A stretch of 64,000 bases of DNA from an uncultured Anaerolineales bacterium (GCA_949319575.1 CASGHD010000029.1:2977-66976); one strand, 5' to 3'; shown: positions 2-29,207, counted from the stretch's first letter. Numbers and translations are program-made. Notes: generated by a model from the letters alone, not told the origin.

Positions 2-592
2 TCGGCGGATGAAAGTGCGTATGTCAACGTCTGGTTCGAGATCGAAGAGCGTAAGTTGAAGACTGTGCTGACGCGCAACCCCGAAACAGGCGAACCGGAA
101 CGCGAAATTCACAAACACGCGCCTGTCGAACCGCGTCCGCCAGACCTACATCCGCCGTTACATTTCAGGCATCGCGCTATTCAGGCACAAGCCAAGTGGA
201 ACGTGGAGACCGAACAGTACGATATGGAAGTTCGCCATATCCCTGAATATTACACGTTCTCACACGAGAGCGAAGCGCTCCTTCGCCTCATGTTCGAATC
301 GTTTGCGGATGATTACCTGTTCTTGATCGGCAAGGAACACGACGATCAACCCTCCCTGCGCGACCATCTACATTCCATCTGCCGCAACCTCCCTTCGGAC
401 TTTGAACCCTACGGCAAGCGTGAACGCAACGGCGAACCCGATTGTTCCGTCGGGTGTAAACATTTTCTCAAACTTCCAGGCAAGCTCGGCTATGACTGGG
501 GCGTGTGCGCGAATCCAGCCAGTCCGCGCGCGGGGTTGTTAACCTTCGAGCATCAGGGCTGTGAGCAGTTTGAGGGCGGCAACACAGAATGA
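2..592 (+). CDS. Cys/His-cluster hypothetical protein (DUF3027-like C-terminus), 5' end outside window
   Basis: The frame is open from nt 2 through the TTG listed at 56, so the ORF is truncated by the window edge. C-terminal cluster CSVGCKHF...DWGVCANP...FEHQGCEQF. Its stop overlaps the next start (ATGA 589-592). Confidence 0.6.
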   Translation, partial: SADESAYVNVWFEIEERKLKTVLTRNPETGEPEREIHKHAPVEPRPPDLHPPLHFRHRAIQAQAKWNVETEQYDMEVRHIPEYYTFSHESEALLRLMFESFADDYLFLIGKEHDDQPSLRDHLHSICRNLPSDFEPYGKRERNGEPDCSVGCKHFLKLPGKLGYDWGVCANPASPRAGLLTFEHQGCEQFEGGNTE

Positions 593-3384
593 CATTCCTC
601 ACCTCTTCCCTCCGCGCTCACTTCGGCTTCGACTCCTTCCGCGCAGGACAGGAAGAAGCGATCACGAGTCTCCTCGACAAAAATCACACGCTCGCCATCA
701 TGCCGACAGGCGCGGGCAAATCGCTCATCTATCAACTTGCCGCGTTGCAATTCGAAGGACTCACGCTCGTCATCTCGCCGCTCATCGCGTTGATGAAAGA
801 CCAGGTGGACGCGCTCAACCGCAAAGGGATTCCCGCCACGTTCATCAACAGCGCAATTTCATCCGCGGAACAAAACCAGAGATTGACGCTTGTATCACAA
901 GGGAATTATCGACTCGTCTACGTCGCGCCCGAACGCCTGCGCAGTGTGACCTTCCTCCGCTCGCTTCAATCCTTGACCTTGAGCCTGCTTGCCGTTGACG
1001 AAGCGCACTGCATCTCTGAGTGGGGACACGACTTCCGCCCCGACTACCTCCACATCGCCGAAACGCGCCGCCACCTGAGAAATCCGCTCACCGTTGCACT
1101 GACCGCCACCGCAACCCCCAAAGTTCAAAATGAAATCGTCCGCCTGATTGGTCTGTCCGAATCCACAACGCGCATTGTCACAGGCTTCAACCGTCCCAAC
1201 CTGACGCTCGAAGTGAAATATACGACAGGCGCCGAAGCCAAATTTCGCGCCTTGAGCGAACTATGTACCGCACACTTCCAGTTTGCGCGCGGCGCGACCA
1301 TCATCTATACAGGCACCCGCCGCGACGCTGAAGAAGTCGCTGAATTCATTCGCGTTATTTGCAAACTACAAGCCGAACACTATCACGCAGGGATGCCACC
1401 CGAAGAGCGCGCGCGGATTCAAGAACGCTTCATCAGCGGCGTCACTCCGGTCATCGTGGCGACCAACGCCTTCGGCATGGGCATTGACCGCGCCGACGTG
1501 CGGCAGGTCATTCACTATTCCGTGCCAGGTTCGCTCGAAGCGTATTATCAGGAGGCAGGTCGCGCGGGGCGCGATGGGTATCCCGCCAGAGCCGCGCTTT
1601 TGTACGATCCGCAAGATCGCGCCTTGCAGGAATTTTTCATTCAAAACAGCGTGGTCACCCCCGACGAACTGCAACTCCTCTACCGCGCGCTGGGAAAGAT
1701 CAACGACGAAGTTTGGCTCACCACCGAAGACTTCCAGCGTCGTACTGAACTGCACCACGTCAAAATCAAAGTGGGACTCGCCGAACTGGAACGCATCGGC
1801 GCGCTCGAACATCTCGGCGATGACGGAGCGCGCATGTCCCTACGCAAAGGCAAATGGGATCCACACGCCGTCCAACAAGCCGCGTCGCGCAGCAGGGATC
1901 ACATCCGCCACCGCACCGAACAACTCGATCACATAATCCGCTATGCCGAGACCAACTCCTGCCGTCGTCGAATCGTGCTTCAACATTTCGGCGATCACGG
2001 CAATGCCGACGCGCCCGTATGTTGCGATAATTGCGAAACGCGAAAGTCCCTGTCAACGCAGAAGACCAGTGAAACCGTCGGCGACGTGGCGCAGATGGAC
2101 CTCATCGAACGCGCCGCACTCATCATTTTGGATACAGTCCACAGGCTTGGAACTCGACAAGTCGGCAGGAAGAAACTTGCGCAAATTCTGAAAGGCTCAA
2201 AGGCGCAAGACATCCTACAATTTCACTATGACAAGAATCCTTATTACAAAAAACTCGTCGCCCTGCAATTGAGACATCTCGAAGACATGATTCAGGAATT
2301 AGTTTCACTCGGATACCTCAAAGTCGTCGGCGGCGAATACCCTGTCATCAAACTGACGCCCAAAGGCGAGAGCGCCATTCAACAAAAAACCTCCATTCCG
2401 CTGAAACTCCCGCAGGGCATTTCTAAACACAAGATCGAAAAGAAGAAAGCCCAAATGCAGGCGGGCGGAACGGTGGAGTACACCGCGCAACTCATCCATG
2501 AAGGTCTCACGCCCGAACAGATTGCGCGCCAACGCGAACTGACCCTGATGACCATTTACGGTCACTGCGCCAAACTCATCGAAGCGGGCAAACTCGACGC
2601 GGACCAGGTCATCGAAAAGGAAACGAAAGGAAAAATCATGGCGGCAATTCAAACAGTCGGCTCGACCCAATTCCTCTTCCCCATCAAAAGTATTCTGCCC
2701 GATGAGATCACGTATGAGATGATCCGTTGTGTTGTGGCGGCACACGAAACACACAGTACAGAAACTCGTATACAAGAAGACAGGTATACAGGTAAACACG
2801 CGCAAACAGACTCCATTACAGATTATCTTTCCACCCCTCACCCCCGCCCGCTCAAAGGCACTTGGCAGGCAGGCTTTGCCCTCGACTTCCATAGTTCTTA
2901 CAAGGGCGCAGAGTGGAACCGAAGCGGCATCGGCGATCTTGTCTATCGACTCAAATACGAATCGGACGCATCCGTTCTGCCCACGCTCGTCGAACATACG
3001 CGCGAACTCTTTGCCGCGCACCCCAACATGAATCAATTCGACATGATTCTTCCCGTTCCATCCTCTACTCAACGCGAATTCAGTCCCGTTCACGAATTTT
3101 GCAAAACGTTATCAAAAACATTCAACAAGCCTGTGCAGACCTTCATCGTCAAATCCCGCCAGACCCAGCCGCAAAAAGAAATCCTTACCCTCCCGCAAAA
3201 ACGCGACAACGTCGCAGGCGCGTTCGCGGTGAACGGTGATATAACTACCAAACGCATCCTACTTGTTGACGACCTCTTCGACTCAGGCGCGACCATCGAA
3301 GAGATTACCCGCCTGCTTCGTAAACATGGCGCGGCAAATATCAACGTGCTGACCTTGACACGCACTATTCATTCGGATCTGTAG
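589..3384 (+). CDS. recQ: RecQ-family ATP-dependent DNA helicase fused to a C-terminal ComF-type phosphoribosyltransferase-like domain (931 aa)
   Basis: FGFDSFRAGQEEAI N-terminus, Walker A MPTGAGKS, DEAH box VDEAHCISEWGHDFRPDY, Zn/RQC region CRRRIVLQHFGD...CCDNC, HTH-like EGLTPEQIARQRELTLMTIYGH. The last ~175 aa (nt ~2860-3384) carry ILPVPSS...RDNVAGAF...ILLVDDLFDSGATI, a ComF/PRTase signature. Confidence 0.9.
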   Translation: MTFLTSSLRAHFGFDSFRAGQEEAITSLLDKNHTLAIMPTGAGKSLIYQLAALQFEGLTLVISPLIALMKDQVDALNRKGIPATFINSAISSAEQNQRLTLVSQGNYRLVYVAPERLRSVTFLRSLQSLTLSLLAVDEAHCISEWGHDFRPDYLHIAETRRHLRNPLTVALTATATPKVQNEIVRLIGLSESTTRIVTGFNRPNLTLEVKYTTGAEAKFRALSELCTAHFQFARGATIIYTGTRRDAEEVAEFIRVICKLQAEHYHAGMPPEERARIQERFISGVTPVIVATNAFGMGIDRADVRQVIHYSVPGSLEAYYQEAGRAGRDGYPARAALLYDPQDRALQEFFIQNSVVTPDELQLLYRALGKINDEVWLTTEDFQRRTELHHVKIKVGLAELERIGALEHLGDDGARMSLRKGKWDPHAVQQAASRSRDHIRHRTEQLDHIIRYAETNSCRRRIVLQHFGDHGNADAPVCCDNCETRKSLSTQKTSETVGDVAQMDLIERAALIILDTVHRLGTRQVGRKKLAQILKGSKAQDILQFHYDKNPYYKKLVALQLRHLEDMIQELVSLGYLKVVGGEYPVIKLTPKGESAIQQKTSIPLKLPQGISKHKIEKKKAQMQAGGTVEYTAQLIHEGLTPEQIARQRELTLMTIYGHCAKLIEAGKLDADQVIEKETKGKIMAAIQTVGSTQFLFPIKSILPDEITYEMIRCVVAAHETHSTETRIQEDRYTGKHAQTDSITDYLSTPHPRPLKGTWQAGFALDFHSSYKGAEWNRSGIGDLVYRLKYESDASVLPTLVEHTRELFAAHPNMNQFDMILPVPSSTQREFSPVHEFCKTLSKTFNKPVQTFIVKSRQTQPQKEILTLPQKRDNVAGAFAVNGDITTKRILLVDDLFDSGATIEEITRLLRKHGAANINVLTLTRTIHSDL

Positions 3385-3416
3385 GCAGGTAGACGCGTAA
3401 ACACGTATCTCGTATC

Positions 3417-4370
3417 ATGAACAACGACTCCCTCGCCCTCCTCCTCTGCTCCCAACTCGGACTCGACGACTCCGTCAAGCCATTGACCCTGCGCGAATGG
3501 AATCCCCTTGTGCGGAAACTGCAAGCCGCCTCCCTCCGCCCCTCCGATCTGATTCACCTCCCCGGCTCTGATCTCCGCCTCAAACTTGATCTCGACCCCG
3601 AACTCGCAACTCGCATCTCATCTCTCGCATCCCGCGACATCCAACCGCATCTCACTCGTCTCTCCTCCCTCGGCATCTATCCCCTCACCCGCGCGGATTC
3701 AGATTACCCTGAAAAATATCGCCAACGCTTGAAAGACTCGGCTCCCGCCGTATTGTTCTATGCAGGCGAAAAGGCATTGCTCGGTCAGCCTGGGATTGGA
3801 GTCGTCGGTTCGCGTCACTTGGATGAAGCGGGACAGGATTGCGCAAAGTTTGTCGGCAATGCGTGCGGACTGTCGGGGCAGGTTTTGTACTCGGGCGGCG
3901 CAAGAGGCGTGGATACGCTCAGCATGGAGTCTGCGCTTGAGGCGCGGGGAACAGCCGTCGGTGTGCTGGCGGATAGTTTGGAGAAGCAGGTCAAAAGTCG
4001 GAAAGAAGCGTTGAAGCGCGGCGATCTGTGCCTCGTCACGCCGTACAGTCCCAACGCGGGGTTTTCCGTCGGCGCGGCAATGGGTCGCAATCGTCTCATC
4101 TATTGCCTTGCCGATTACGCCATCGTGGTCGCGTCGGATGCGGAAACGGGCGGCACATGGGCAGGCGCGACTGAGACGCTAAAAAATAATTGGGTTCCCG
4201 TTTTTGTATTGGAGCACGATCACATGCCAGAGGGAAATAAACTGCTCCTGCAAAAGGGCGCGCTGGCTTTCCCGCATCCGTTCAAAGAACCGCCCGTGAA
4301 GTTGCCCGATTGGATGAAAGAGCAAGCCGCAAGTTTGCCACCTCAAACCGCACAGCCAACTCTTTTCTGA
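3417..4370 (+). CDS. dprA: DprA/Smf-like DNA-processing protein (Rossmann/SLOG fold)
   Basis: GVVGSRHLDEAG...YSGGARGVDTLSMESAL...GVLADSL...GRNRLIYCLADYAIVVASDAETGGTWAGA matches the DprA core pattern. It lies 32 nt downstream of the recQ fusion on the same strand. Confidence 0.8.
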   Translation: MNNDSLALLLCSQLGLDDSVKPLTLREWNPLVRKLQAASLRPSDLIHLPGSDLRLKLDLDPELATRISSLASRDIQPHLTRLSSLGIYPLTRADSDYPEKYRQRLKDSAPAVLFYAGEKALLGQPGIGVVGSRHLDEAGQDCAKFVGNACGLSGQVLYSGGARGVDTLSMESALEARGTAVGVLADSLEKQVKSRKEALKRGDLCLVTPYSPNAGFSVGAAMGRNRLIYCLADYAIVVASDAETGGTWAGATETLKNNWVPVFVLEHDHMPEGNKLLLQKGALAFPHPFKEPPVKLPDWMKEQAASLPPQTAQPTLF

Positions 4371-4762
4371 TCGCTCCACCTTTTTATTTCCATCGCTCCA
4401 TTCCATGTTCGATTTCACCTGCCACTTCGCGGCGCAAATAGTTTCGCGGGCGGCGATGAAAACTTTTAGATCCATGGAAATACATCGCCATGCAGCGACT
4501 TGTTGTACCTTTCCTAGCCACCTGACACTTTCCTTTTTGGACGCTGATAAAAAACTTTTTTCACCTGTTTGTTGAAAAATCGGTGTTCATCCGCGTCTCG
4601 TTTTTAAAACTGTCAGGTGCGTAGTGCTTTTCCAAATTAATCGAGCAACAAGTTGGATTTGAGGGCGCCAATTCCAACCACTGAGACACGGAGACACCGA
4701 GAACTTGCATTGAACTTGCGAAATAAAATAATTAACCTCTTGCATACGTGGTAATTTCTTCA

Positions 4763-4830
4763 GCCACAGAGACACAGAGAACGCTGAGAAAACCTTATTT
4801 TTACTCTCTGCGACTCAGCGTCTCAGGTGC
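4763..4830. repeat. Intergenic hairpin repeat (CACAGAG/CGCTGAG motifs, A/T-rich loop, complementary CTCTCTG/CTCAGCG motifs)
   Basis: gccacagagacacagagaacgctgag-aaaaccttattttta-ctctctgcgactcagcgtctcaggtg. The layout matches the internal part of the MITE at 10117-10269. Confidence 0.6.
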
Positions 4831-5317
4831 AGAATGACTTTCGCAAGAGGTCTAATTAAAAACGGGTCTCCCGTAATTAACGGGAAAGCGCCCACCACGA
4901 AGGACACAAAGGGGAAAAAAAGAGGTTAGATTCCTTGTGTTTTTCCTTCGCGACCGTCGCGTCATTGCGACAAGCTCAATGCAAGCCTTTGTGTTTGAAA
5001 AAAAGATTCCCGTTAAAAACGGTCGAAACTCCACTCAGCGTCTCCGTGGTTCAAAACGGATTGCTCGGTTTAATTGTTAATCTTCAAAAAGTCGCGTTAC
5101 GAGATTTCCAGCAGCCCTTTTCCCAACGCTGTCAGACGGATTTCAGAGAGATATTGCGATGTGTAACGATCGCGTGTTCTTTCTATTGCGCAACACCAGT
5201 CATTAATACGCCGAGTGTTATGGCGGAGACCAACAGGGCAACCAGAATAGGAAGCGCGTTTCTCATCGCGCTTGACGCGGAAGCGCTTTCAACTCCCTCC
5301 TGTGCTAAACTTACCCC

Positions 5318-10083: not shown

Positions 10084-10116
10084 TCTACGCGCCAGAATAG
10101 ACACCTACAACGTAAC

Positions 10117-10269
10117 GGGAGCGCTCAAAGGTTGTAGATAGTCCAACAGACTACACCACAGAGACACCGAGCCACGGAGTTTTTTTATTGCTTTTCTCCG
10201 TGTTTCCGTGACTCCGTGGTTAGGGTTTTCCTCCTGTGGTGAAACCCATCTACATACTTTTAGCGCGCC
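10117..10269 (+). mobile_element. MITE copy 1 (~153 bp) with imperfect ~22-bp terminal inverted repeats and a 9-bp target-site duplication
   Basis: Flanked by the identical direct repeat CAACGTAAC at 10108-10116 and 10270-10278. The termini GGGAGCGCTCAAAGGTTGTAGAT and ATCTACATACTTTTAGCGCGCC are inverted repeats. Near-identical to 12364-12517 in reverse orientation. Confidence 0.8.
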
Positions 10270-10285
10270 CAACGTAACAAATTGC

Positions 10286-10339: not shown

Positions 10340-10412
10340 GCCCCCATCGTCTAGTGGACTAGGACGCAGCCCTTTCAAGGCTACGACCGGGGTTCGAATC
10401 CCCGTGGGGGCA
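10340..10412 (+). tRNA. tRNA-Glu (anticodon UUC), no encoded CCA
   Basis: Manual cloverleaf: acceptor GCCCCCA/TGGGGGC, D arm gtct-agtggacta-ggac, anticodon loop cTTTCaa, T arm cgggg-ttcgaat-ccccg. Confidence 0.9.
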
Positions 10413-12267: not shown

Positions 12268-12363
12268 GAGTCCTCCAAAATAATAAATCCGCCCCAGATG
12301 CGCATCCGGGGCGGACAAATTATACCCTTCACGGGCATACCTATCACGCGGACTTTTTACGCC

Positions 12364-12517
12364 GAGTGCGCTAAAAGTATGTAGATGGGTTTCACCACAG
12401 GCGGAAAACCCTAACCACGGAGTCACGGAAACACGGAGAAAAGCAATAAAAAAACTCCGCGACTCGGTGTCTCCGTGGTTTAGTCTGTTGGGCTATCTAC
12501 AACCTTTGAGTGCTCCC
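12364..12517 (-). mobile_element. MITE copy 2 (~154 bp), inverted relative to copy 1, with its own 9-bp target-site duplication
   Basis: Flanked by TTTTACGCC at 12355-12363 and 12518-12526. Only a handful of substitutions relative to the reverse complement of 10117-10269. Confidence 0.8.
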
Positions 12518-12519
12518 TT

Positions 12520-13497
12520 TTACGCCTGCGCTGTAGGTGAAGGCGGCGGACTCACGATCACACCAGACGCGTGAATGGTGCGCGACCCGAAGCGGGTGAT
12601 CACCACCGAGCCGATCGCCAGCAACCCAAGCAGGAATTGCGCCAGACCGCCGAGGCAAGGGATAAACCCAAGCGCGCCGCTGACCAGCACGAACAGGAAG
12701 GTTCCAACGCCCACCGTCACCACCGGCGACCACGTCTGACTCATTGCCCTGGCAAAACGATCCCCCACTTCCGAACCGAAGGCGACGATCCCGAACAACC
12801 AGGCAAAGCCCAGCACGATCGGCGGGATGATCGTGAGGAACAGCAACACGCTCACCACCACTGCCAGCAAGCCCATCGCGCCGACCATCAGCGGTTGCGC
12901 GGCAATGGCGCTACCCGCCCGTTCCATTTGCGGCTTCCAGAACAACGAAAGCAACATGGCAAATCCCGCCGCCAGCGTTGCCCAGAAGAACAACTGAAAC
13001 ATCTGCCCAAAAAAGCTGAACCCAAAATCGTACTTCACATTGATCCTGGACGGATCTAGAATAGGCGGAACCTCCCCATCCGGGATATTGATCTCCGGCT
13101 GAACGTTATTGACGATCTCGCCCTCGACAACGGCTCCCTCCGCCACCACCGCCTGCCCGCCAATCGTGACAACATCACCCAGCGCCGACGCGGTGTCGTT
13201 CAAATAAATCTGTCCGCCAACGGCAACAACATCGCCATGGATGGTCCCGTCGCTTTCCACAGTGCCGCCGAACACGATCAGGCTTCCGTTGAAATCGGCG
13301 TCTTCTTCAATGGTTACATTCCCGCCAAAGACCACCAGATCGCCATCAAACGAATCGCCGGATTCCAGCGTGAAATTACTCCCAAAGATCACCTGCCCGC
13401 CGCTAGGTCCCGGCCCTTGGGCAAACGCCGCGCCTGTTGGAACAAGCACAAGCATGAAAAGGGCAATCAGGGAAACGAGTCTAAATTTTGTCTTCAT
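12520..13497 (-). CDS. Signal-peptide protein with bactofilin-like (polymer-forming, DUF583-type) repeats and C-terminal multi-TM region
   Basis: Signal MKTKFRLVSLIALFMLVLVPTGAAFA; repeats GDLVVFGGNVTI / GSLIVFGGTVES / GDVVAVGGQIYL / GDVVTIGGQAVV; then about 4 hydrophobic helices. Confidence 0.75.
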   Translation of the reverse strand: MKTKFRLVSLIALFMLVLVPTGAAFAQGPGPSGGQVIFGSNFTLESGDSFDGDLVVFGGNVTIEEDADFNGSLIVFGGTVESDGTIHGDVVAVGGQIYLNDTASALGDVVTIGGQAVVAEGAVVEGEIVNNVQPEINIPDGEVPPILDPSRINVKYDFGFSFFGQMFQLFFWATLAAGFAMLLSLFWKPQMERAGSAIAAQPLMVGAMGLLAVVVSVLLFLTIIPPIVLGFAWLFGIVAFGSEVGDRFARAMSQTWSPVVTVGVGTFLFVLVSGALGFIPCLGGLAQFLLGLLAIGSVVITRFGSRTIHASGVIVSPPPSPTAQA

Positions 13498-25464: not shown

Positions 25465-27309
25465 TTACTTAAAAATCGGCGCTCCGACCATTTCCTCAAG
25501 ATAGGATTTGGACGCATCGAGCGCGGTTGCCGAAGCCGGGTCGTCAGCAAGGTTATTCGTCTCCTGCGGATCGTCCCTCCAATTGTAGAGCGCTTCGCCG
25601 AACTCTTCATGGACCATGTACTGCAATTGATCGCCCACCACCGATTTCATCTCTCCATAGGTTGTGGGGTTTTGTTCCGCCGCGCCGGCAAATTGCGCCA
25701 CCTCCGAAATGGGTTGCGCCCACCCCGGGGGAACATTTCCGCCGAATAATTTCGTCAGCGGCTGTGAGGGGAATGTGCCGTCGTTGGCATCCAGTAATTG
25801 CAGGATCGTGGAAGGCAATGCGGTAGTGGAAACGGGCGTGTCGATCACCCTGCCCTCCGGCATCCCTGCCCCCCACACGATCAGCGGCACGTGAATCTCC
25901 TGCCGGTATAGCGACGCGCTGTGCTGGAGCAGTCCATGCTCGCCAAGCGACTCGCCGTGATCGGAGGTGATGATGACGATGGTATTCTCCAACTCGCCGC
26001 GCGACTCAAGTTCAGCAAAAAGATTTTTGATCTGGTCATCCACATAGTTGATCGAGCCATCGTACGCGTCAATTTCGGATTGCAGTTGTTCGGGCGTCAA
26101 GTCAGGGTGGTAACGTTCCACGAAGCCGTTGATCAGCCCGCCCTGCGTCTGACCGTATTTGCTGAGGTAGGGTTCGGGCGGCGTGTATGGGTCATGCGCG
26201 TCAAAGTAGTTGATAAACATGAAAAACGGTTTATCACTTTGATCCATCCATTCCAACGCCGATTGATTAATATCCGGCGCAAGCCTGCGCGTGGGAACGC
26301 CTTCGTAGTTCAAGGCTTTGCGCAAACCGTAATAATCGAAGAGATAGCCATATAACGATGAATTGAGGAACGCATCGGGCGCCGACTGGTAATTATCTTC
26401 AAAATGCAGGAAGCCGCGACCGAATCCCTGGCGGCGGGTGAAGAATAACGTGTTCGCCGAGAATGCTCCTGTCCGATAACCATTCGCCTGCATCACTTCG
26501 CCAATCGTCGGATAGGTATCACCCAACGGTTGCGTTTCGGCTTGGTGTTCGTAGGTGTATCGTCCCGTCAACATGGAGGCGTGTGAGGGCTGGGTCCACG
26601 AGGAGGGCGAGATCGCATTCTCAAAGCGGACGCCCTGCGCGGCGAGGCTGTCGATGAACGGGCTGGTCTCACGCGAATATCCATACGAGGAAAGATGATC
26701 GGCGCGCAATGTGTCTACGACGATGACGATCACGTTCGGCGCGTCGACACTGTCTTTCAACTGGGAGGTTTTTAGTTTTTCGTGCGCCCATCCGCCGCCT
26801 TGAACGATAACGAAGATCGCGATTGCCGTTCCTGCAAGCCATTTCAAAATGCGTGGGATTTTTTGTGTAATGGCTTGTTCCCGTTTGGATAACACATTGA
26901 ACACTTGAACGCTTGCTCCCGCCGCTAAAATCAAAATCGGCAACAGGGAGATACGTCCAAAGAGGATGATGAAGACCCAATCGAATACGGCAAGGAATGA
27001 AAAGAGAAACAGGCTGAGTTTTCTGACTGGGGTTTTCTTTCGCAACGGGAAGCCAATGAGCGACAGAGCGAACCCCGCCAGTGAAAACAGGATCACGTCC
27101 ACCAGCGGCGCGATCCACAGCGTTTCATACCAATAGGCGCGGTTTTGCAGTCGCCACGTCAGCAGTTCGAGTTGATGCAAGCCGAAGAGCAGGATGCCCT
27201 CCACCAACCCGGTGATGAGACCGAAGGCGGCAGAAAGCATGAGTGTTTTCTTTGCAAAGTCTTTGAAGGTGTCGTTCACTGGTGATCTCAGGAAAATGTA
27301 ACGCGACAT
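25465..27309 (-). CDS. Membrane-anchored alkaline-phosphatase-superfamily (sulfatase/LtaS/EptA-like) enzyme, Thr-type active site
   Basis: N-terminal ~5 TM. NVIVIVVDTLRADHLSSYGY, WTQPSHASMLTG (TxPxH in place of the sulfatase CxPxR), ITSDHGESLGEHG. Confidence 0.85.
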   Translation of the reverse strand: MSRYIFLRSPVNDTFKDFAKKTLMLSAAFGLITGLVEGILLFGLHQLELLTWRLQNRAYWYETLWIAPLVDVILFSLAGFALSLIGFPLRKKTPVRKLSLFLFSFLAVFDWVFIILFGRISLLPILILAAGASVQVFNVLSKREQAITQKIPRILKWLAGTAIAIFVIVQGGGWAHEKLKTSQLKDSVDAPNVIVIVVDTLRADHLSSYGYSRETSPFIDSLAAQGVRFENAISPSSWTQPSHASMLTGRYTYEHQAETQPLGDTYPTIGEVMQANGYRTGAFSANTLFFTRRQGFGRGFLHFEDNYQSAPDAFLNSSLYGYLFDYYGLRKALNYEGVPTRRLAPDINQSALEWMDQSDKPFFMFINYFDAHDPYTPPEPYLSKYGQTQGGLINGFVERYHPDLTPEQLQSEIDAYDGSINYVDDQIKNLFAELESRGELENTIVIITSDHGESLGEHGLLQHSASLYRQEIHVPLIVWGAGMPEGRVIDTPVSTTALPSTILQLLDANDGTFPSQPLTKLFGGNVPPGWAQPISEVAQFAGAAEQNPTTYGEMKSVVGDQLQYMVHEEFGEALYNWRDDPQETNNLADDPASATALDASKSYLEEMVGAPIFK

Positions 27310-27362: not shown

Positions 27363-29207
27363 TTATTTGTTATCGTAGGGCCAGGTCATGCCAAGCTTGG
27401 AAAGCAGATCGAGATAATAATTCTTGAGTTCGTCCAGCGCGGCGGGATTCTCGCCGGCAAGATTATTTTCCTGATTCGGGTCATCCGCCAAACTGTACAA
27501 CTCCACGCCGTTAAACTCATGCGCGATGAACTGCCACTTGGGGGAGATCACGCTGACCATATCGCCTCGAATCGACAAGTGATTCGGGTTCACCCAACTC
27601 GACTCTGCCATCTCTGCGATGGGGTCGGGGAAGCCCGCCGCGGAGGCTGGGTCAACCCACAATTGGGAAAGAGGCGGGCCAGGGAAGGTGGTCTGCTCCG
27701 GTTCGCCGAGCATATCCAATAACATGGCGGGGATAAAGGTGTTCGACACCGGCGTATCGATCCGCATATTCTGCGGCACAGATTTCGGATACCACACGAT
27801 CAACGGCACGTGGATGACCGGCTTGTATAACGAGTTGTGATGTTCCCACAAGCCGTGCTCGCCGAACAATTCGCCATGATCGGAGGTGATGACGACGATG
27901 GTGTTATCGAGTTTGCCGCGCGACTCCAGTTCCTTCAACAGCGCGTCGATCTGCTGGTCGGTGTAATCGATGCCGCCGTCGTAGGCGTCGATCTCGCCTT
28001 GAACTTGCTCGGGCGTTTTGGGGTTGTAAATATCGGCAGTCGTCCAATCGGTGTTGACGAGTCCGCCGGGGTTGGGGAGGTTGGAAAATTTCGCGCGTTC
28101 CGGTGAAATGTACGGCGCGTGCGCGTCGTAGTAATTGACAAAGGCAAAGAACGGCTTGCTATCGTCCTGCTCGATCCAATCCAATGCCGATCGGTTGACG
28201 CTTGGGCCCCAGCGGCGGTCGATGGAAAATTCCATATTGAAGACTTTATGGAGAACATAGTATTCGATGAAACGACCATACACAGAACTGACCGCCAGTT
28301 GCGGCAGGGTCTGGTAATAATCTTCAAAATGGAGAAAGCCGCGCCCAAACCCCCAGTGGCTGGTGACCGTTTCAAAATTGCCGTTGAACGCGCCCGCGCG
28401 ATAGCCGCGTTGGGTCAGCGCTTCGGCAATGGTGGGATAGGTCTCATCGAGGTAACGCCCGCCATCGGCTTTGTGTTCGTAGGGCCAGCGACCGGTGAAG
28501 AGTGAGGCGTGCGAGGTCAGAGTCCATGAGGAGGCGGCGTAGGCGTTTTCAAACATCACGCCTTCGGAGGCGATGCGCTTGAGTGTGGGGTCGGTCTCGC
28601 GCTCGTACCCTTGAAGCGACAAATGGTCGGCGCGAACGGTGTCCATCACGATCACTAAAACGTTCGGGGTTGATTCATTCGCCTGAGGCAGGTTGCTTGT
28701 TGCAACACGTTCCTGAATCCAAAAGCCGCCTTGAATGAGGACGAACAATGCCAGCGTTACGCCGGCAAATATTTTAAAAGTTCGTTGCGCAAACGACGCA
28801 AATCGGTTCTCACGCGCAAAAATGACCGTAGATATTTGATAGCCGATGCCCGCGCCAAGGATCGCTGTGGCGGCGGGATTCAACCTGCCGGAAAGGTATA
28901 TCAGCAACCAAGCGAAAAACGCCAGAAAACAGAAAACAAAGAAGACCGCCTGCTTTGCCAACTTTTGCGGCAGAAATTGAGCAACGACCGCCACACCCAC
29001 GCCCGCAAGCAAAAAGAACAACGCGTCGAAGACCGGCGCGACCCATAACACTTGTGGCCCTGAGCCGAGGTAGGTGATCTGTCCGCGCAGGAGTTCGTAT
29101 CGTTGCATCGCGTACAAGAATACGCCTTCCACCAGCCCGGTGACAATGCCAAACCACAATGCGTATTGGAGGATTTCACTTGCAAATTGTTTGTCGAATT
29201 TTTTCAT
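27363..29207 (-). CDS. Membrane-anchored alkaline-phosphatase-superfamily enzyme, tandem paralogue (also 614 aa)
   Basis: NVLVIVMDTVRADHLSLQGY, WTLTSHASLFTG, ITSDHGELFGEHG. Same TM architecture as 25465-27309. Confidence 0.85.
   Translation of the reverse strand: MKKFDKQFASEILQYALWFGIVTGLVEGVFLYAMQRYELLRGQITYLGSGPQVLWVAPVFDALFFLLAGVGVAVVAQFLPQKLAKQAVFFVFCFLAFFAWLLIYLSGRLNPAATAILGAGIGYQISTVIFARENRFASFAQRTFKIFAGVTLALFVLIQGGFWIQERVATSNLPQANESTPNVLVIVMDTVRADHLSLQGYERETDPTLKRIASEGVMFENAYAASSWTLTSHASLFTGRWPYEHKADGGRYLDETYPTIAEALTQRGYRAGAFNGNFETVTSHWGFGRGFLHFEDYYQTLPQLAVSSVYGRFIEYYVLHKVFNMEFSIDRRWGPSVNRSALDWIEQDDSKPFFAFVNYYDAHAPYISPERAKFSNLPNPGGLVNTDWTTADIYNPKTPEQVQGEIDAYDGGIDYTDQQIDALLKELESRGKLDNTIVVITSDHGELFGEHGLWEHHNSLYKPVIHVPLIVWYPKSVPQNMRIDTPVSNTFIPAMLLDMLGEPEQTTFPGPPLSQLWVDPASAAGFPDPIAEMAESSWVNPNHLSIRGDMVSVISPKWQFIAHEFNGVELYSLADDPNQENNLAGENPAALDELKNYYLDLLSKLGMTWPYDNK

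What the first reader, a model, noticed from the sequence alone, without database searches (positions are those of the whole stretch)
2..4370. Three-gene DNA-processing operon: Cys-cluster protein, RecQ-PRTase fusion and DprA-like protein, a possible rearranged PsyrTA/RqlHI-type or ComFA-ComFC-DprA-type system
Seen in sequence: three same-strand genes are tightly linked (ATGA overlap at 589-592; 32-nt gap at 3385-3416). They are followed by a 950-nt non-coding, repeat-filled gap, so they form a discrete unit. The middle gene is a complete RecQ (helicase core, Zn/RQC, HTH) carrying a ComF-type PRTase domain. The third gene is a divergent DprA (GVD..SM instead of the usual GID..AH). Established knowledge: ComFC (PRTase fold) and DprA act with a helicase/translocase (ComFA) on incoming ssDNA in natural transformation. 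As I recall (to be verified), the PsyrTA/RqlHI toxin-antitoxin and anti-phage pair combines a RecQ-like helicase with a partner carrying DprA-like and PRTase-like domains. Inference: the same three domains occur here, but the PRTase has moved onto the helicase and a DUF3027-like metal-cluster protein is translationally coupled upstream. I do not recognise this architecture as described. It could be a defence/TA variant or a one-polypeptide ComFA/ComFC analogue.
Basis: partly seen in the sequence, partly recalled or inferred. Interest (0 to 1): 0.8.

Follow-up and report, generated by a model that had tools for sequence, protein, structure and literature searches.

The report
Long-form RqlHI/PsyrTA toxin-antitoxin defence pair
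Two of the three genes are a RecQ-helicase/phosphoribosyltransferase toxin and its DprA-like antitoxin from the already known PsyrTA (RqlHI) anti-phage family, here in a longer domain version common in Anaerolineales, and the cysteine-rich upstream gene is only an occasional neighbour, so this is a recognisable member of a known family and not a new system.

Summary
The three genes and their junctions are real. orfA (2-592) is cut by the window edge and is 330 aa in full. orfB (589-3384) is 931 aa and orfC (3417-4370) is 317 aa.

orfB has a RecQ core, an RqlH-type linker, a Cys4 zinc domain, RQC, HTH_40 and a C-terminal ComF-like PRTase. It matches both halves of PADLOC PsyrT (helicase 9e-151, PRTase 2.5e-33). 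orfC matches PsyrA (2.3e-91).

The literature shows that the canonical RqlH/PsyrT already carries the PRTase on the helicase, and that RqlI/PsyrA is the DprA-like antitoxin encoded downstream.

What differs from the canonical pair:
- a roughly 225-290 aa RQC+HTH_40 insert in the toxin;
- an antitoxin without the C-terminal HTH;
- a translationally coupled upstream gene, orfA.

In relatives the B-C pair is adjacent in 11 of 11 lineages, always in different genomic contexts. Neighbours include Wadjet, other TA pairs and IS elements.

orfA is next to B in only 3 lineages and stands without B or C in 7. It is an island-associated gene, not an obligate component.

The "gap" downstream of orfC holds relics of two decayed genes.

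Verdict: a new member (long-form subfamily) of a known TA/defence family, of modest interest.

The parts
2..592 (+). orfA, C-terminal 196 aa of a 330-aa protein (start lies outside the window). It has an N-terminal Zn-ribbon domain (C13, C16, C130, C133), a middle beta/alpha domain and a C-terminal 4-Cys module that is weakly DUF3027-like. Its TGA overlaps the orfB ATG (ATGA, 589-592). It is a facultative neighbour, not a core part of the system.
   Evidence: AF2 model and fold search found no known fold. No PADLOC, NCBIfam or PDB match.
589..3384 (+). orfB, 931 aa: long-form RqlH/PsyrT-like toxin (RecQ-like helicase fused to a ComF-like PRTase).
   Evidence: Pfam and NCBIfam. PADLOC PsyrT 9e-151. 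BLASTP to plasmid-borne short-form RqlH-like proteins aligns aa 17-482 and 774-930.
589..2094 (+). Helicase motor of orfB (aa 1-502): SF2 ATPase (Walker A K44, DEAH 137-140, TAT 172, QEAGRAGR 321), ~87-aa RqlH-type linker (aa 346-432) and Cys4 zinc domain (C458, C478, C479, C482).
   Evidence: One contiguous alignment to PsyrT profile positions 10-496. E. coli RecQ structure 1oyw aligns only to aa 8-346.
2110..2736 (+). RQC winged-helix (aa 508-609) and HTH_40 (aa 628-716) of orfB. This module is absent from canonical ~690-aa RqlH/PsyrT and is not covered by the PsyrT profile.
   Evidence: The same insert occurs in many distant long-form relatives.
2893..3381 (+). ComF-like PRTase domain of orfB (aa ~769-931) with an intact PRPP loop, ILLVDDLFDSGAT (D894, D895). 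This is the presumed toxic effector domain.
   Evidence: PADLOC PsyrT profile 527-688/689 at 2.5e-33, and ShosT at 7.8e-10. NCBIfam ComF/GntX. Motif conservation.
3417..4370 (+). orfC, 317 aa: RqlI/PsyrA-like DprA-fold antitoxin. It lacks the ~80-aa C-terminal HTH of the 400-aa E. coli RqlI.
   Evidence: PADLOC PsyrA 2.3e-91 (aa 3-315 to profile 6-322/398), ShosA 2.6e-23. DprA equivalog below cut-off. 41% identity to the partner of a Nostoc plasmid RqlH-like gene.
4387..4475 (-). Relic of a DUF2293 gene: the N-terminal 15 aa joined by a frameshifting internal deletion to the C-terminal ~16 aa. It is convergent with orfC at the same ~17-19-nt spacing as the intact gene in L095.
5106..5183 (-). 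Relic of the last 26 codons of a PRiA4_ORF3-family gene (81% identical to the L093 homologue).

Best explanation
Window 589-4370 is a two-gene PsyrTA/RqlHI-type toxin-antitoxin and anti-phage module, in a long-form version typical of Anaerolineales.

orfB is the toxin. It is a 3'-5' RecQ-like DNA motor whose C-terminal ComF-like PRTase domain, by analogy with E. coli RqlH, is the genotoxic effector. The analogy to ShosT suggests PRPP-dependent disturbance of nucleotide or DNA metabolism, leading to SOS induction, filamentation and growth arrest.

orfC is the DprA-fold antitoxin encoded immediately downstream. It is inferred to neutralise orfB by binding its PRTase domain.

The inferred trigger is phage infection, either through ssDNA or replication intermediates that titrate the DprA-like protein, or through host shut-off that depletes a labile antitoxin. 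Either would free the toxin and abort the infection.

The extra RQC winged-helix and HTH_40 domains are inferred to add duplex or junction DNA binding to the motor.

orfA is co-transcribed here and probably translationally coupled. It is a facultative gene associated with defence islands and mobile elements, of unknown function, and is not a required component.

The module lies in a decaying variable island, with relics of DUF2293 and PRiA4_ORF3 genes just downstream.

Shown here: domain composition, family matches, intact motifs, strict B-C pairing and variable context. Inferred: toxicity, neutralisation, trigger and anti-phage role.
For: Family matches:
- PADLOC PsyrT matches both halves of orfB, and PsyrA matches orfC nearly full length.
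- Direct BLASTP to short-form RecQ-PRTase/DprA-like pairs on an E. coli IncF plasmid (embedded between hsdS and hsdR) and on a Nostoc plasmid aligns helicase, linker and Zn domain (aa 17-482, E 8e-48 and 2e-59) and PRTase (aa 774-930, E 1e-10 and 3e-11). orfC is 41% identical to the Nostoc partner.

Literature:
- RqlH = helicase + PRTase. The PRTase is the toxic domain, RqlI binds it, and RqlI 1-320 without the HTH is fully active (PMC4670107).
- RqlH domain plan and helicase activity (PMC3378886).
- PsyrTA and ShosTA are anti-phage systems with DprA-like antitoxins and PRTase toxins.

Catalytic motifs are intact.

Comparative data:
- The DprA-like gene lies directly downstream of the fusion in 11 of 11 lineages: window, L007, L009, L095, L099/L137, L130-L135.
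- Flanking genes differ in every lineage.
- JetABCD sits directly upstream in L132 and L135. MazE-PIN, Fic/Doc, HigBA and IS elements are nearby elsewhere.
- B-C is present in L095 but absent in L093/L094, between the same orfA and DUF2293/PRiA4 flanks.
- L088 carries an orphan antitoxin.
Against: - No experiment exists on this clade. The toxic chemistry of any RqlH PRTase is still unknown.
- The long form keeps RQC/HTH_40, which are typical of bona fide repair RecQ helicases.
- The family is very common and 58-88% identical across Anaerolineales MAGs. That could reflect vertical, housekeeping-like inheritance.
- M. smegmatis RqlH is viewed as a repair helicase, and some bacteria have rqlH without rqlI.
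- I could not check whether this genome also has a canonical recQ or dprA.
- No relatives of orfC were found in IMG/VR viral contigs.
- Synteny in Anaerolineales MAGs may be low in general, so variable context is weaker evidence than it looks.
Confidence: 0.7

Rival explanations
1. Housekeeping DNA-repair pair. orfB would be the lineage's RecQ/RqlH recombination helicase and orfC a DprA-like recombination mediator that loads RecA. They would work together in repair, with no toxin-antitoxin or defence role.
For: - orfB has a full RecQ core plus RQC and HTH_40.
- The family is abundant and well conserved in Anaerolineales.
- Mycobacteria that have RqlH lack a classical RecQ (PMC3378886).
- ShosA promotes recombination and binds RecA.
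- No second recQ or dprA lies in the 64-kb window.
Against: - The recQ equivalog model scores below its cut-off (486 against 640), as does dprA (85 against 191).
- An intact PRTase effector domain is conserved, and it is the toxic part in E. coli.
- No conserved synteny. The pair recurs next to Wadjet, TA pairs and IS elements, and shows a B-C presence/absence polymorphism.
- An Anaerolineales MAG carries a separate RecQ without a PRTase (L074).
Confidence: 0.2
2. A true three-gene system in which orfA (Zn-ribbon/Cys-cluster protein) is a required sensor or regulator of the RecQ-PRTase/DprA-like pair.
For: - ATGA overlap of orfA and orfB here and a one-base overlap in L095.
- An A-DUF1841-B-C operon in L099/L137/L138.
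- orfA lies within 8 kb of an RqlI-like gene in 6 of 13 orfA lineages, in changing gene orders (A-B-C, A-x-C, C-A, A-Wadjet-B-C).
Against: - orfA is absent beside B-C in L009 and L130-L134. L007 also shows none, but only about 0.9 kb upstream is held. In L135/L136 it lies about 7.5 kb away, with Wadjet in between.
- orfA stands alone in 7 lineages, next to SWIM/SNF2, PRiA4_ORF3, TA pairs or IS elements.
- Its N-domain family sits next to integrases.
- Canonical RqlHI works as two genes.
Confidence: 0.08
3. A one-polypeptide ComFA/ComFC analogue plus DprA, acting on incoming ssDNA in natural transformation.
For: The PRTase is ComF-like (TIGR00201 and GntX, ~55 bits). DprA fold in orfC.
Against: - All three competence models score far below their cut-offs.
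- The helicase is RecQ-family, not ComFA-like.
- No comEA, comEC or pilus gene was seen in the part of the window examined or in the 10 kb upstream.
- The best matches are to PsyrT/PsyrA defence profiles.
Confidence: 0.02

Closest known systems
RqlHI / PsyrTA (E. coli F11 RqlH-RqlI; P. syringae PsyrTA; M. smegmatis RqlH)
   Same: - RecQ-like ATPase, then a ~90-aa linker, a Cys4 zinc domain and a C-terminal ComF-like PRTase on one polypeptide.
- A DprA-like partner encoded immediately downstream on the same strand.
- No HRDC domain.
- Strong matches to both PADLOC profiles.
- Residence in defence or mobile contexts.
   Different: - The toxin is 931 aa rather than ~690 aa, with RQC + HTH_40 (about 225 aa net) inserted between the zinc domain and the PRTase.
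- The antitoxin is 317 aa rather than ~400 aa and lacks the C-terminal HTH, which is dispensable in E. coli.
- An upstream gene, orfA, is coupled to the toxin gene in this sub-lineage.
- Only 26-32% identity to proteobacterial and cyanobacterial examples.
ShosTA
   Same: PRTase toxin with the same PRPP loop. DprA-like antitoxin (ShosA profile 2.6e-23; PDB 9vzo 5.5e-4).
   Different: ShosT has an N-terminal pyrophosphatase-type hydrolase domain and no helicase. Only the PRTase part matches (E ~1e-8 to 1e-9). ShosA does not stably bind ShosT (type IV), whereas RqlI binds the RqlH PRTase domain.
Classical RecQ and RecQ-RQC-HTH_40 helicases
   Same: Motor core, zinc domain, RQC and HTH_40. RecQ-family proteins without a PRTase align to aa ~8-720 of orfB (L012, L035, L040, L063).
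   Different: They have no PRTase and no DprA-like partner. E. coli RecQ has an HRDC domain and lacks the RqlH linker. orfB scores below the recQ equivalog cut-off.
ComFA-ComFC-DprA competence proteins
   Same: ComF-like PRTase fold and DprA fold, both associated with a helicase.
   Different: Different helicase family. All competence models score below their cut-offs. No com gene context.
DpdF (Dpd 7-deazaguanine DNA modification and restriction system)
   Same: RecQ-like core gives high PADLOC DpdF scores.
   Different: The match is a generic RecQ-core hit. No other dpd gene was seen in the part of the window examined or in the 10 kb upstream. The NCBIfam DpdF equivalog scores 215 against a cut-off of 550.

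Membership tests
RqlHI / PsyrTA | RecQ-like SF2 ATPase with motifs I, II (DEAH), III and VI | tested here: met
   K44 in GAGKS, DEAH 137-140, TAT 172, QEAGRAGR 321. TIGR00614 scores 417 bits against a cut-off of 220.
RqlHI / PsyrTA | RqlH-specific ~90-aa spacer between the ATPase and the tetracysteine zinc domain | tested here: met
   Helicase_C ends at aa 330 and the Zn domain spans 433-482, with C458, C478, C479 and C482. One contiguous alignment to PsyrT profile 10-496, and to plasmid RqlH-like proteins through aa 482.
RqlHI / PsyrTA | C-terminal ComF-like PRTase on the helicase polypeptide, with an intact PRPP-binding loop | tested here: met
   PsyrT profile 527-688 at 2.5e-33. Pribosyltran and ComF matches. 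VDDLFDSGAT conserved.
RqlHI / PsyrTA | Same domains in the same order with similar inter-domain spacing as the founder (~690 aa, no RQC or HRDC) | tested here: not met
   HRDC is absent, but RQC + HTH_40 (aa 508-716) are inserted and the protein is 931 aa. The long form is a large subfamily, ~39 of the top 150 clusters.
RqlHI / PsyrTA | DprA-like partner gene immediately downstream, same strand, matching PsyrA/RqlI rather than true DprA | tested here: met
   32-nt spacer. PsyrA 2.3e-91, against a dprA equivalog score of 85 (cut-off 191). 41% identity to the Nostoc plasmid partner. Pairing seen in 11 of 11 lineages.
RqlHI / PsyrTA | C-terminal HTH in the antitoxin (E. coli RqlI aa ~320-400) | tested here: not met
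   orfC ends at PsyrA profile position 322 of 398. Partners in this clade are 303-326 aa. The HTH is dispensable for antitoxin activity in E. coli.
RqlHI / PsyrTA | PRTase-dependent toxicity neutralised by direct binding of the partner; phage protection | not testable with these tools
   Needs expression, co-IP and phage assays.
ShosTA | Toxin = N-terminal PPase/hydrolase domain + PRTase, no helicase | tested here: not met
   The ShosT profile matches only aa 810-928 of orfB (profile 88-213 of 237, E ~1e-8). The N-terminus is a RecQ helicase.
ComFA/ComFC/DprA competence machinery | Scores above the curated cut-offs for ComF and DprA; com gene neighbourhood | tested here: not met
   ComF 54 against 234; GntX 55 against 304; DprA 85 against 191. 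No com genes were seen in the 10 kb upstream or among ten large ORFs sampled downstream.
Classical RecQ | recQ equivalog score; HRDC domain; zinc domain abutting the ATPase | tested here: not met
   TIGR01389 scores 486 against 640. No HRDC hit. An 87-aa linker is present.

The most novel reading that the evidence does not exclude
In a sub-lineage of Anaerolineales the RqlHI module has been extended into a larger system. The upstream Zn-ribbon/Cys-cluster protein orfA (with or without a DUF1841 protein) would act as an accessory sensor or regulator of the toxin-antitoxin pair. The RQC/HTH_40 (or HEAT) insert would let the helicase-PRTase recognise particular phage DNA structures. The recurrent Wadjet-RqlHI-orfA neighbourhood would reflect functional cooperation rather than mere island co-residence.
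Probability: 0.15. Interest if true: 0.5.

Novelty: new member of a known kind. Interest (0 to 1): 0.3.

Why it matters
The result shows that an architecture which looked new is the canonical PsyrTA/RqlHI plan. It documents a populous long-form subfamily (RecQ core + RQC + HTH_40 or HEAT + PRTase, paired with an HTH-less DprA-like antitoxin) that dominates in Anaerolineales and is annotated simply as "RecQ family helicase" and "DprA".

The biochemical action of the RqlH PRTase and the role of its helicase are still unknown. No sequence-related solved structure of RqlH/PsyrT turned up. A variant with extra DNA-binding domains and strict pairing could help dissect how DNA sensing, helicase activity and PRTase toxicity are coupled.

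The result also warns against counting these genes as housekeeping recQ or dprA in metabolic and repair reconstructions of Chloroflexota MAGs.

Tried and rejected
- **Genome-contig scan with full orfB.** It was swamped by the generic RecQ motif EAHCISEW. Only 3 of 80 loci were true fusions, so prevalence per genome could not be measured.
- **Structure of orfA.** The AF2 model is good for aa 1-250 and poor for the Cys module. Foldseek against PDB gave nothing below E 0.1. The Whirly/PUR-like hits have probability below 0.3 and were not used.
- **Sequence searches for orfA.** PDB, NCBIfam and PADLOC gave no hits.
- **Viral contigs.** No relatives of orfC or orfA were found.
- **Promoter and terminator scans.** Counts were at chance level, so they were not used to define the operon.
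- **'Repeat-filled' gap.** Only short imperfect repeats are present; the 12-mer pair was reached by 2 of 100 shuffles. No Rfam family matches there.
- **DpdF reading.** Rejected as a generic RecQ-core hit.
- **ShosTA membership.** Rejected: no PPase domain, and a helicase is present.
- **Literature on DUF3027, UPF0158, DUF4926, DUF1841 and DUF2293.** Nothing informative.
- **Structure prediction with the exact full-length orfA.** A 92%-identical homologue (P0121) was modelled instead.

Full report
**Observation**

The window encodes three + strand ORFs: 56..592 (open back to base 2), 589..3384 (931 aa) and 3417..4370 (317 aa). The ATGA overlap at 589-592 and the 32-nt spacer at 3385-3416 are read directly from the sequence.

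The window comes from an Anaerolineales (Chloroflexota) MAG from wastewater. Identical copies of orfB lie on 90-kb ENA contigs, which supply the missing upstream DNA. The first gene is really 330 aa (L001:9012-10004).

Pfam places six domains in orfB, all above their cut-offs:
- DEAD (aa 19-180)
- Helicase_C (218-330)
- RecQ_Zn_bind (433-482)
- RQC (508-609)
- HTH_40 (628-716)
- Pribosyltran (839-924)

orfC carries DNA_processg_A (1.7e-33). The DUF3027 hit in orfA scores 21-22 bits, below the cut-off of 25, and covers only the last ~55 residues.

**What the pair is**

PADLOC matches orfB to PsyrT (9e-151, aa 6-502 to profile positions 10-496 of 689). It matches orfC to PsyrA (2.3e-91, aa 3-315 to profile 6-322 of 398).

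Any RecQ would hit the first half of the PsyrT profile, so I searched the last 202 residues alone. They match PsyrT profile positions 527-688 at 2.5e-33, and ShosT only at 7.8e-10. The 230 residues in between (RQC+HTH_40) do not match PsyrT.

The literature settles the architecture question:
- M. smegmatis RqlH (691 aa) is a RecQ-like ATPase, a ~90-aa linker, a tetracysteine zinc domain and a ComF-like PRTase C-domain (PMC3378886).
- E. coli F11 RqlH has its PRTase at aa 509-690. That domain is the genotoxic part.
- RqlI is encoded just downstream. It is DprA-like, binds the PRTase domain and neutralises it. RqlI 1-320, which lacks the HTH, is fully active (PMC4670107).
- Millman et al. equate PsyrTA with RqlHI and report it, with ShosTA, as an anti-phage system that has a DprA-like antitoxin and a PRTase toxin.

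The fusion is the canonical plan.

**Direct comparisons**

tblastn of orfC against plasmids found RecQ-family/'DprA' pairs in two places:
- an E. coli IncF plasmid, where the pair sits between hsdS and hsdR of a type I R-M operon;
- Nostoc plasmid pNPM3.

orfB aligns to these 699-710-aa proteins over aa 17-482 (29-32% identity, E 8e-48 and 2e-59). That alignment runs through the linker and the zinc domain. It aligns again over aa 774-930 (26-29% identity, E 1e-10 and 3e-11). Nothing aligns to aa 483-773. orfC is 41% identical to the Nostoc partner over aa 8-286; that partner has ~108 extra C-terminal residues.

Catalytic signatures are intact: Walker A K44, DEAH 137-140, QEAGRAGR 321, Cys458/478/479/482, and the PRPP loop ILLVDDLFDSGAT.

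The curated models for true RecQ, ComF, GntX and DprA all score below their cut-offs.

**How common the long form is**

The orfB family comprises more than 100 clusters at 58-88% identity. All are from Anaerolineales or Chloroflexota MAGs and share the same architecture. A ~1060-aa subgroup also carries HEAT repeats.

A library-wide search with the PRTase domain found 85 clusters at E below 1e-30. About 39 of the top 150 are proteins of 860-1180 aa with the PRTase at the C-terminus.

A Pfam sample of these shows RecQ core + Zn + RQC, then HTH_40, a second RQC or HEAT, then the PRTase. The 701- and 706-aa proteins lack RQC and correspond to canonical RqlH. The long form is thus a sizeable, so far unremarked, subfamily and not a one-off.

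**Is it a three-gene unit?**

No. The DprA-like gene directly follows the fusion in every lineage examined: window, L007, L009, L095, L099/L101/L137/L138, and L130-L135. The spacers range from an overlap to 248 nt.

| orfA situation | Lineages |
|---|---|
| Adjacent to orfB | 3 (window; L095; L099/L137/L138, where a DUF1841 gene lies between) |
| Same island, separated from B-C by JetABCD | 1 (L136) |
| Next to an RqlI-like gene only | 2 (L088, L097) |
| No B or C within 2-8 kb | 7 (L087, L089, L090, L091/92, L093/94, L096, L098) |

Conversely, L009 and L130-L134 have B-C without orfA.

L093/L094 and L095 share orfA and the convergent DUF2293 + PRiA4_ORF3 genes at 70-75% nucleotide identity. 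Only L095 has B-C between them. This is a cassette-like presence/absence polymorphism.

**Context**

No flanking gene of the window is shared with any related locus. The neighbours of B-C or of orfA elsewhere include:
- Wadjet JetABCD, directly upstream of the fusion in L132 and L135, upstream of orfA in L091, and as a JetC fragment in L137/L138;
- MazE-PIN, MazE-Doc and HigBA toxin-antitoxin pairs;
- Fic, SNF2/SWIM genes and IS3 transposases.

orfA's N-terminal domain occurs alone or fused to an XRE HTH, immediately after tyrosine integrases. Its C-terminal Cys module is 65-70% identical in fusions with UPF0158 and DUF4926. orfA has no PDB, PADLOC or NCBIfam match. A confident AF2 model of its first 250 residues finds no known fold.

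**The 'gap'**

Bases 4371-5317 are not repeat-filled. They contain relics on the - strand:
- 4387-4475 joins the first 15 and last ~16 codons of a DUF2293 gene. It sits at the same convergent spacing from orfC as the intact gene in L095.
- 5106-5183 keeps the last 26 codons of a PRiA4_ORF3 gene (81% identity; E 1.9e-7 against the whole window).

GC content drops to 44% here. The module therefore sits in a decaying variable region.

**Mechanism (inferred)**

By homology, orfB is a 3'-5' DNA motor. Its PRTase domain damages DNA or nucleotide metabolism when it is unchecked. orfC binds and silences that domain. Phage infection would release the toxin and abort the infection, either through ssDNA or replication intermediates that engage the DprA-like protein, or through host shut-off that depletes it. 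RQC/HTH_40 probably add DNA-structure binding.

None of this has been tested for the long form. The main rival, a repair helicase with a DprA-like mediator, cannot be excluded without the whole genome.

**Verdict**

This is a new member, from a long-form subfamily, of the known PsyrTA/RqlHI family. The third gene is a facultative island neighbour. Interest is modest.

Noticed in passing
L132:1-5938; L135:1-5961; L136:10001-21029; L137:7429-7932; L091:17-6227: Wadjet (JetA-D) lies directly upstream of the long-form RqlH gene in two lineages that are 60-71% identical to orfB. A JetC C-terminal fragment precedes orfA in L137/L138. JetABCD, MazE/Doc, orfA and an IS element are in line in L091. Wadjet, RqlHI and orfA thus recur as neighbours in Anaerolineales.
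   Followed up: partly
L109, L110, L111, L117, L124 (orfA N-domain genes, e.g. L117:3160-3894): Homologues of the orfA N-terminal Zn-ribbon domain, either alone (~185 aa) or fused to an XRE HTH (~289 aa), sit immediately after a tyrosine integrase and an excisionase-like gene, beside MazE, HicB/DUF433-DUF5615 and other TA-like pairs. The domain family looks associated with mobile elements.
   Followed up: partly
window 422-592 (orfA aa ~275-330); proteins P0196-P0240: The ~70-aa C-terminal 4-Cys module (DCSxGCKHF...DWGVC...FEHQGC) is 60-70% identical in otherwise unrelated proteins fused to UPF0158 (PF03682) or DUF4926 (PF16277). It is an unusually conserved, mobile, probably metal-binding module of unknown function. 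AF2 cannot model it (pLDDT below 50).
   Followed up: partly
P0003, P0005, P0016, P0090 etc.; L133:4798-7992; L135:6001-9270: A ~1050-1120-aa subgroup of the RecQ-PRTase proteins carries HEAT repeats (PF13646, PF03130) between HTH_40 and the PRTase. Some distant members have HEAT or a second RQC instead of HTH_40.
   Followed up: partly
L088:351-2820: orfA, a DUF1841 gene and an intact RqlI-like gene (324 aa) lie in line with no RecQ-PRTase gene, i.e. an orphan antitoxin. DUF1841 also lies between orfA and the fusion gene in L099/L137/L138.
   Followed up: partly
window 10114-10280 and 12354-12520: A 167-nt inverted repeat (92% complementary) brackets a 2.07-kb segment holding a tRNA gene (10340-10412), a 193-aa ORF and an AAT-family (PF03417) gene.
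   Followed up: no
window 14783-63895 (- strand): A long same-strand run of envelope or polysaccharide-type genes: PMT_2-like glycosyltransferases, paralogous sulfatases (25465-27309 and 27363-29207, which share a 73%-identical 164-nt repeat), a ParA/Wzz-like 587-aa protein, an asparagine-synthase-like protein and a BNR-repeat protein. No recQ, dprA or com genes were seen among those sampled.
   Followed up: partly
L001:6901-7363 (about 1.6-2.1 kb upstream of orfA, outside the window): A 58-aa PhdYeFM-like antitoxin gene and an overlapping 77-aa ORF, possibly another small TA pair next to the locus.
   Followed up: no
L009:9974-13161: The RecQ-PRTase homologue in a Chloroflexia MAG is split into three ORFs (372, 277 and 377 aa) while its DprA-like partner is intact. 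This is either a decayed toxin or frameshift errors in the assembly.
   Followed up: no
L139:1-9521 (E. coli plasmid NZ_OX030731.1): A short-form RecQ-PRTase/DprA-like pair is inserted between hsdS and hsdR of a type I restriction-modification operon on a conjugative IncF plasmid.
   Followed up: partly
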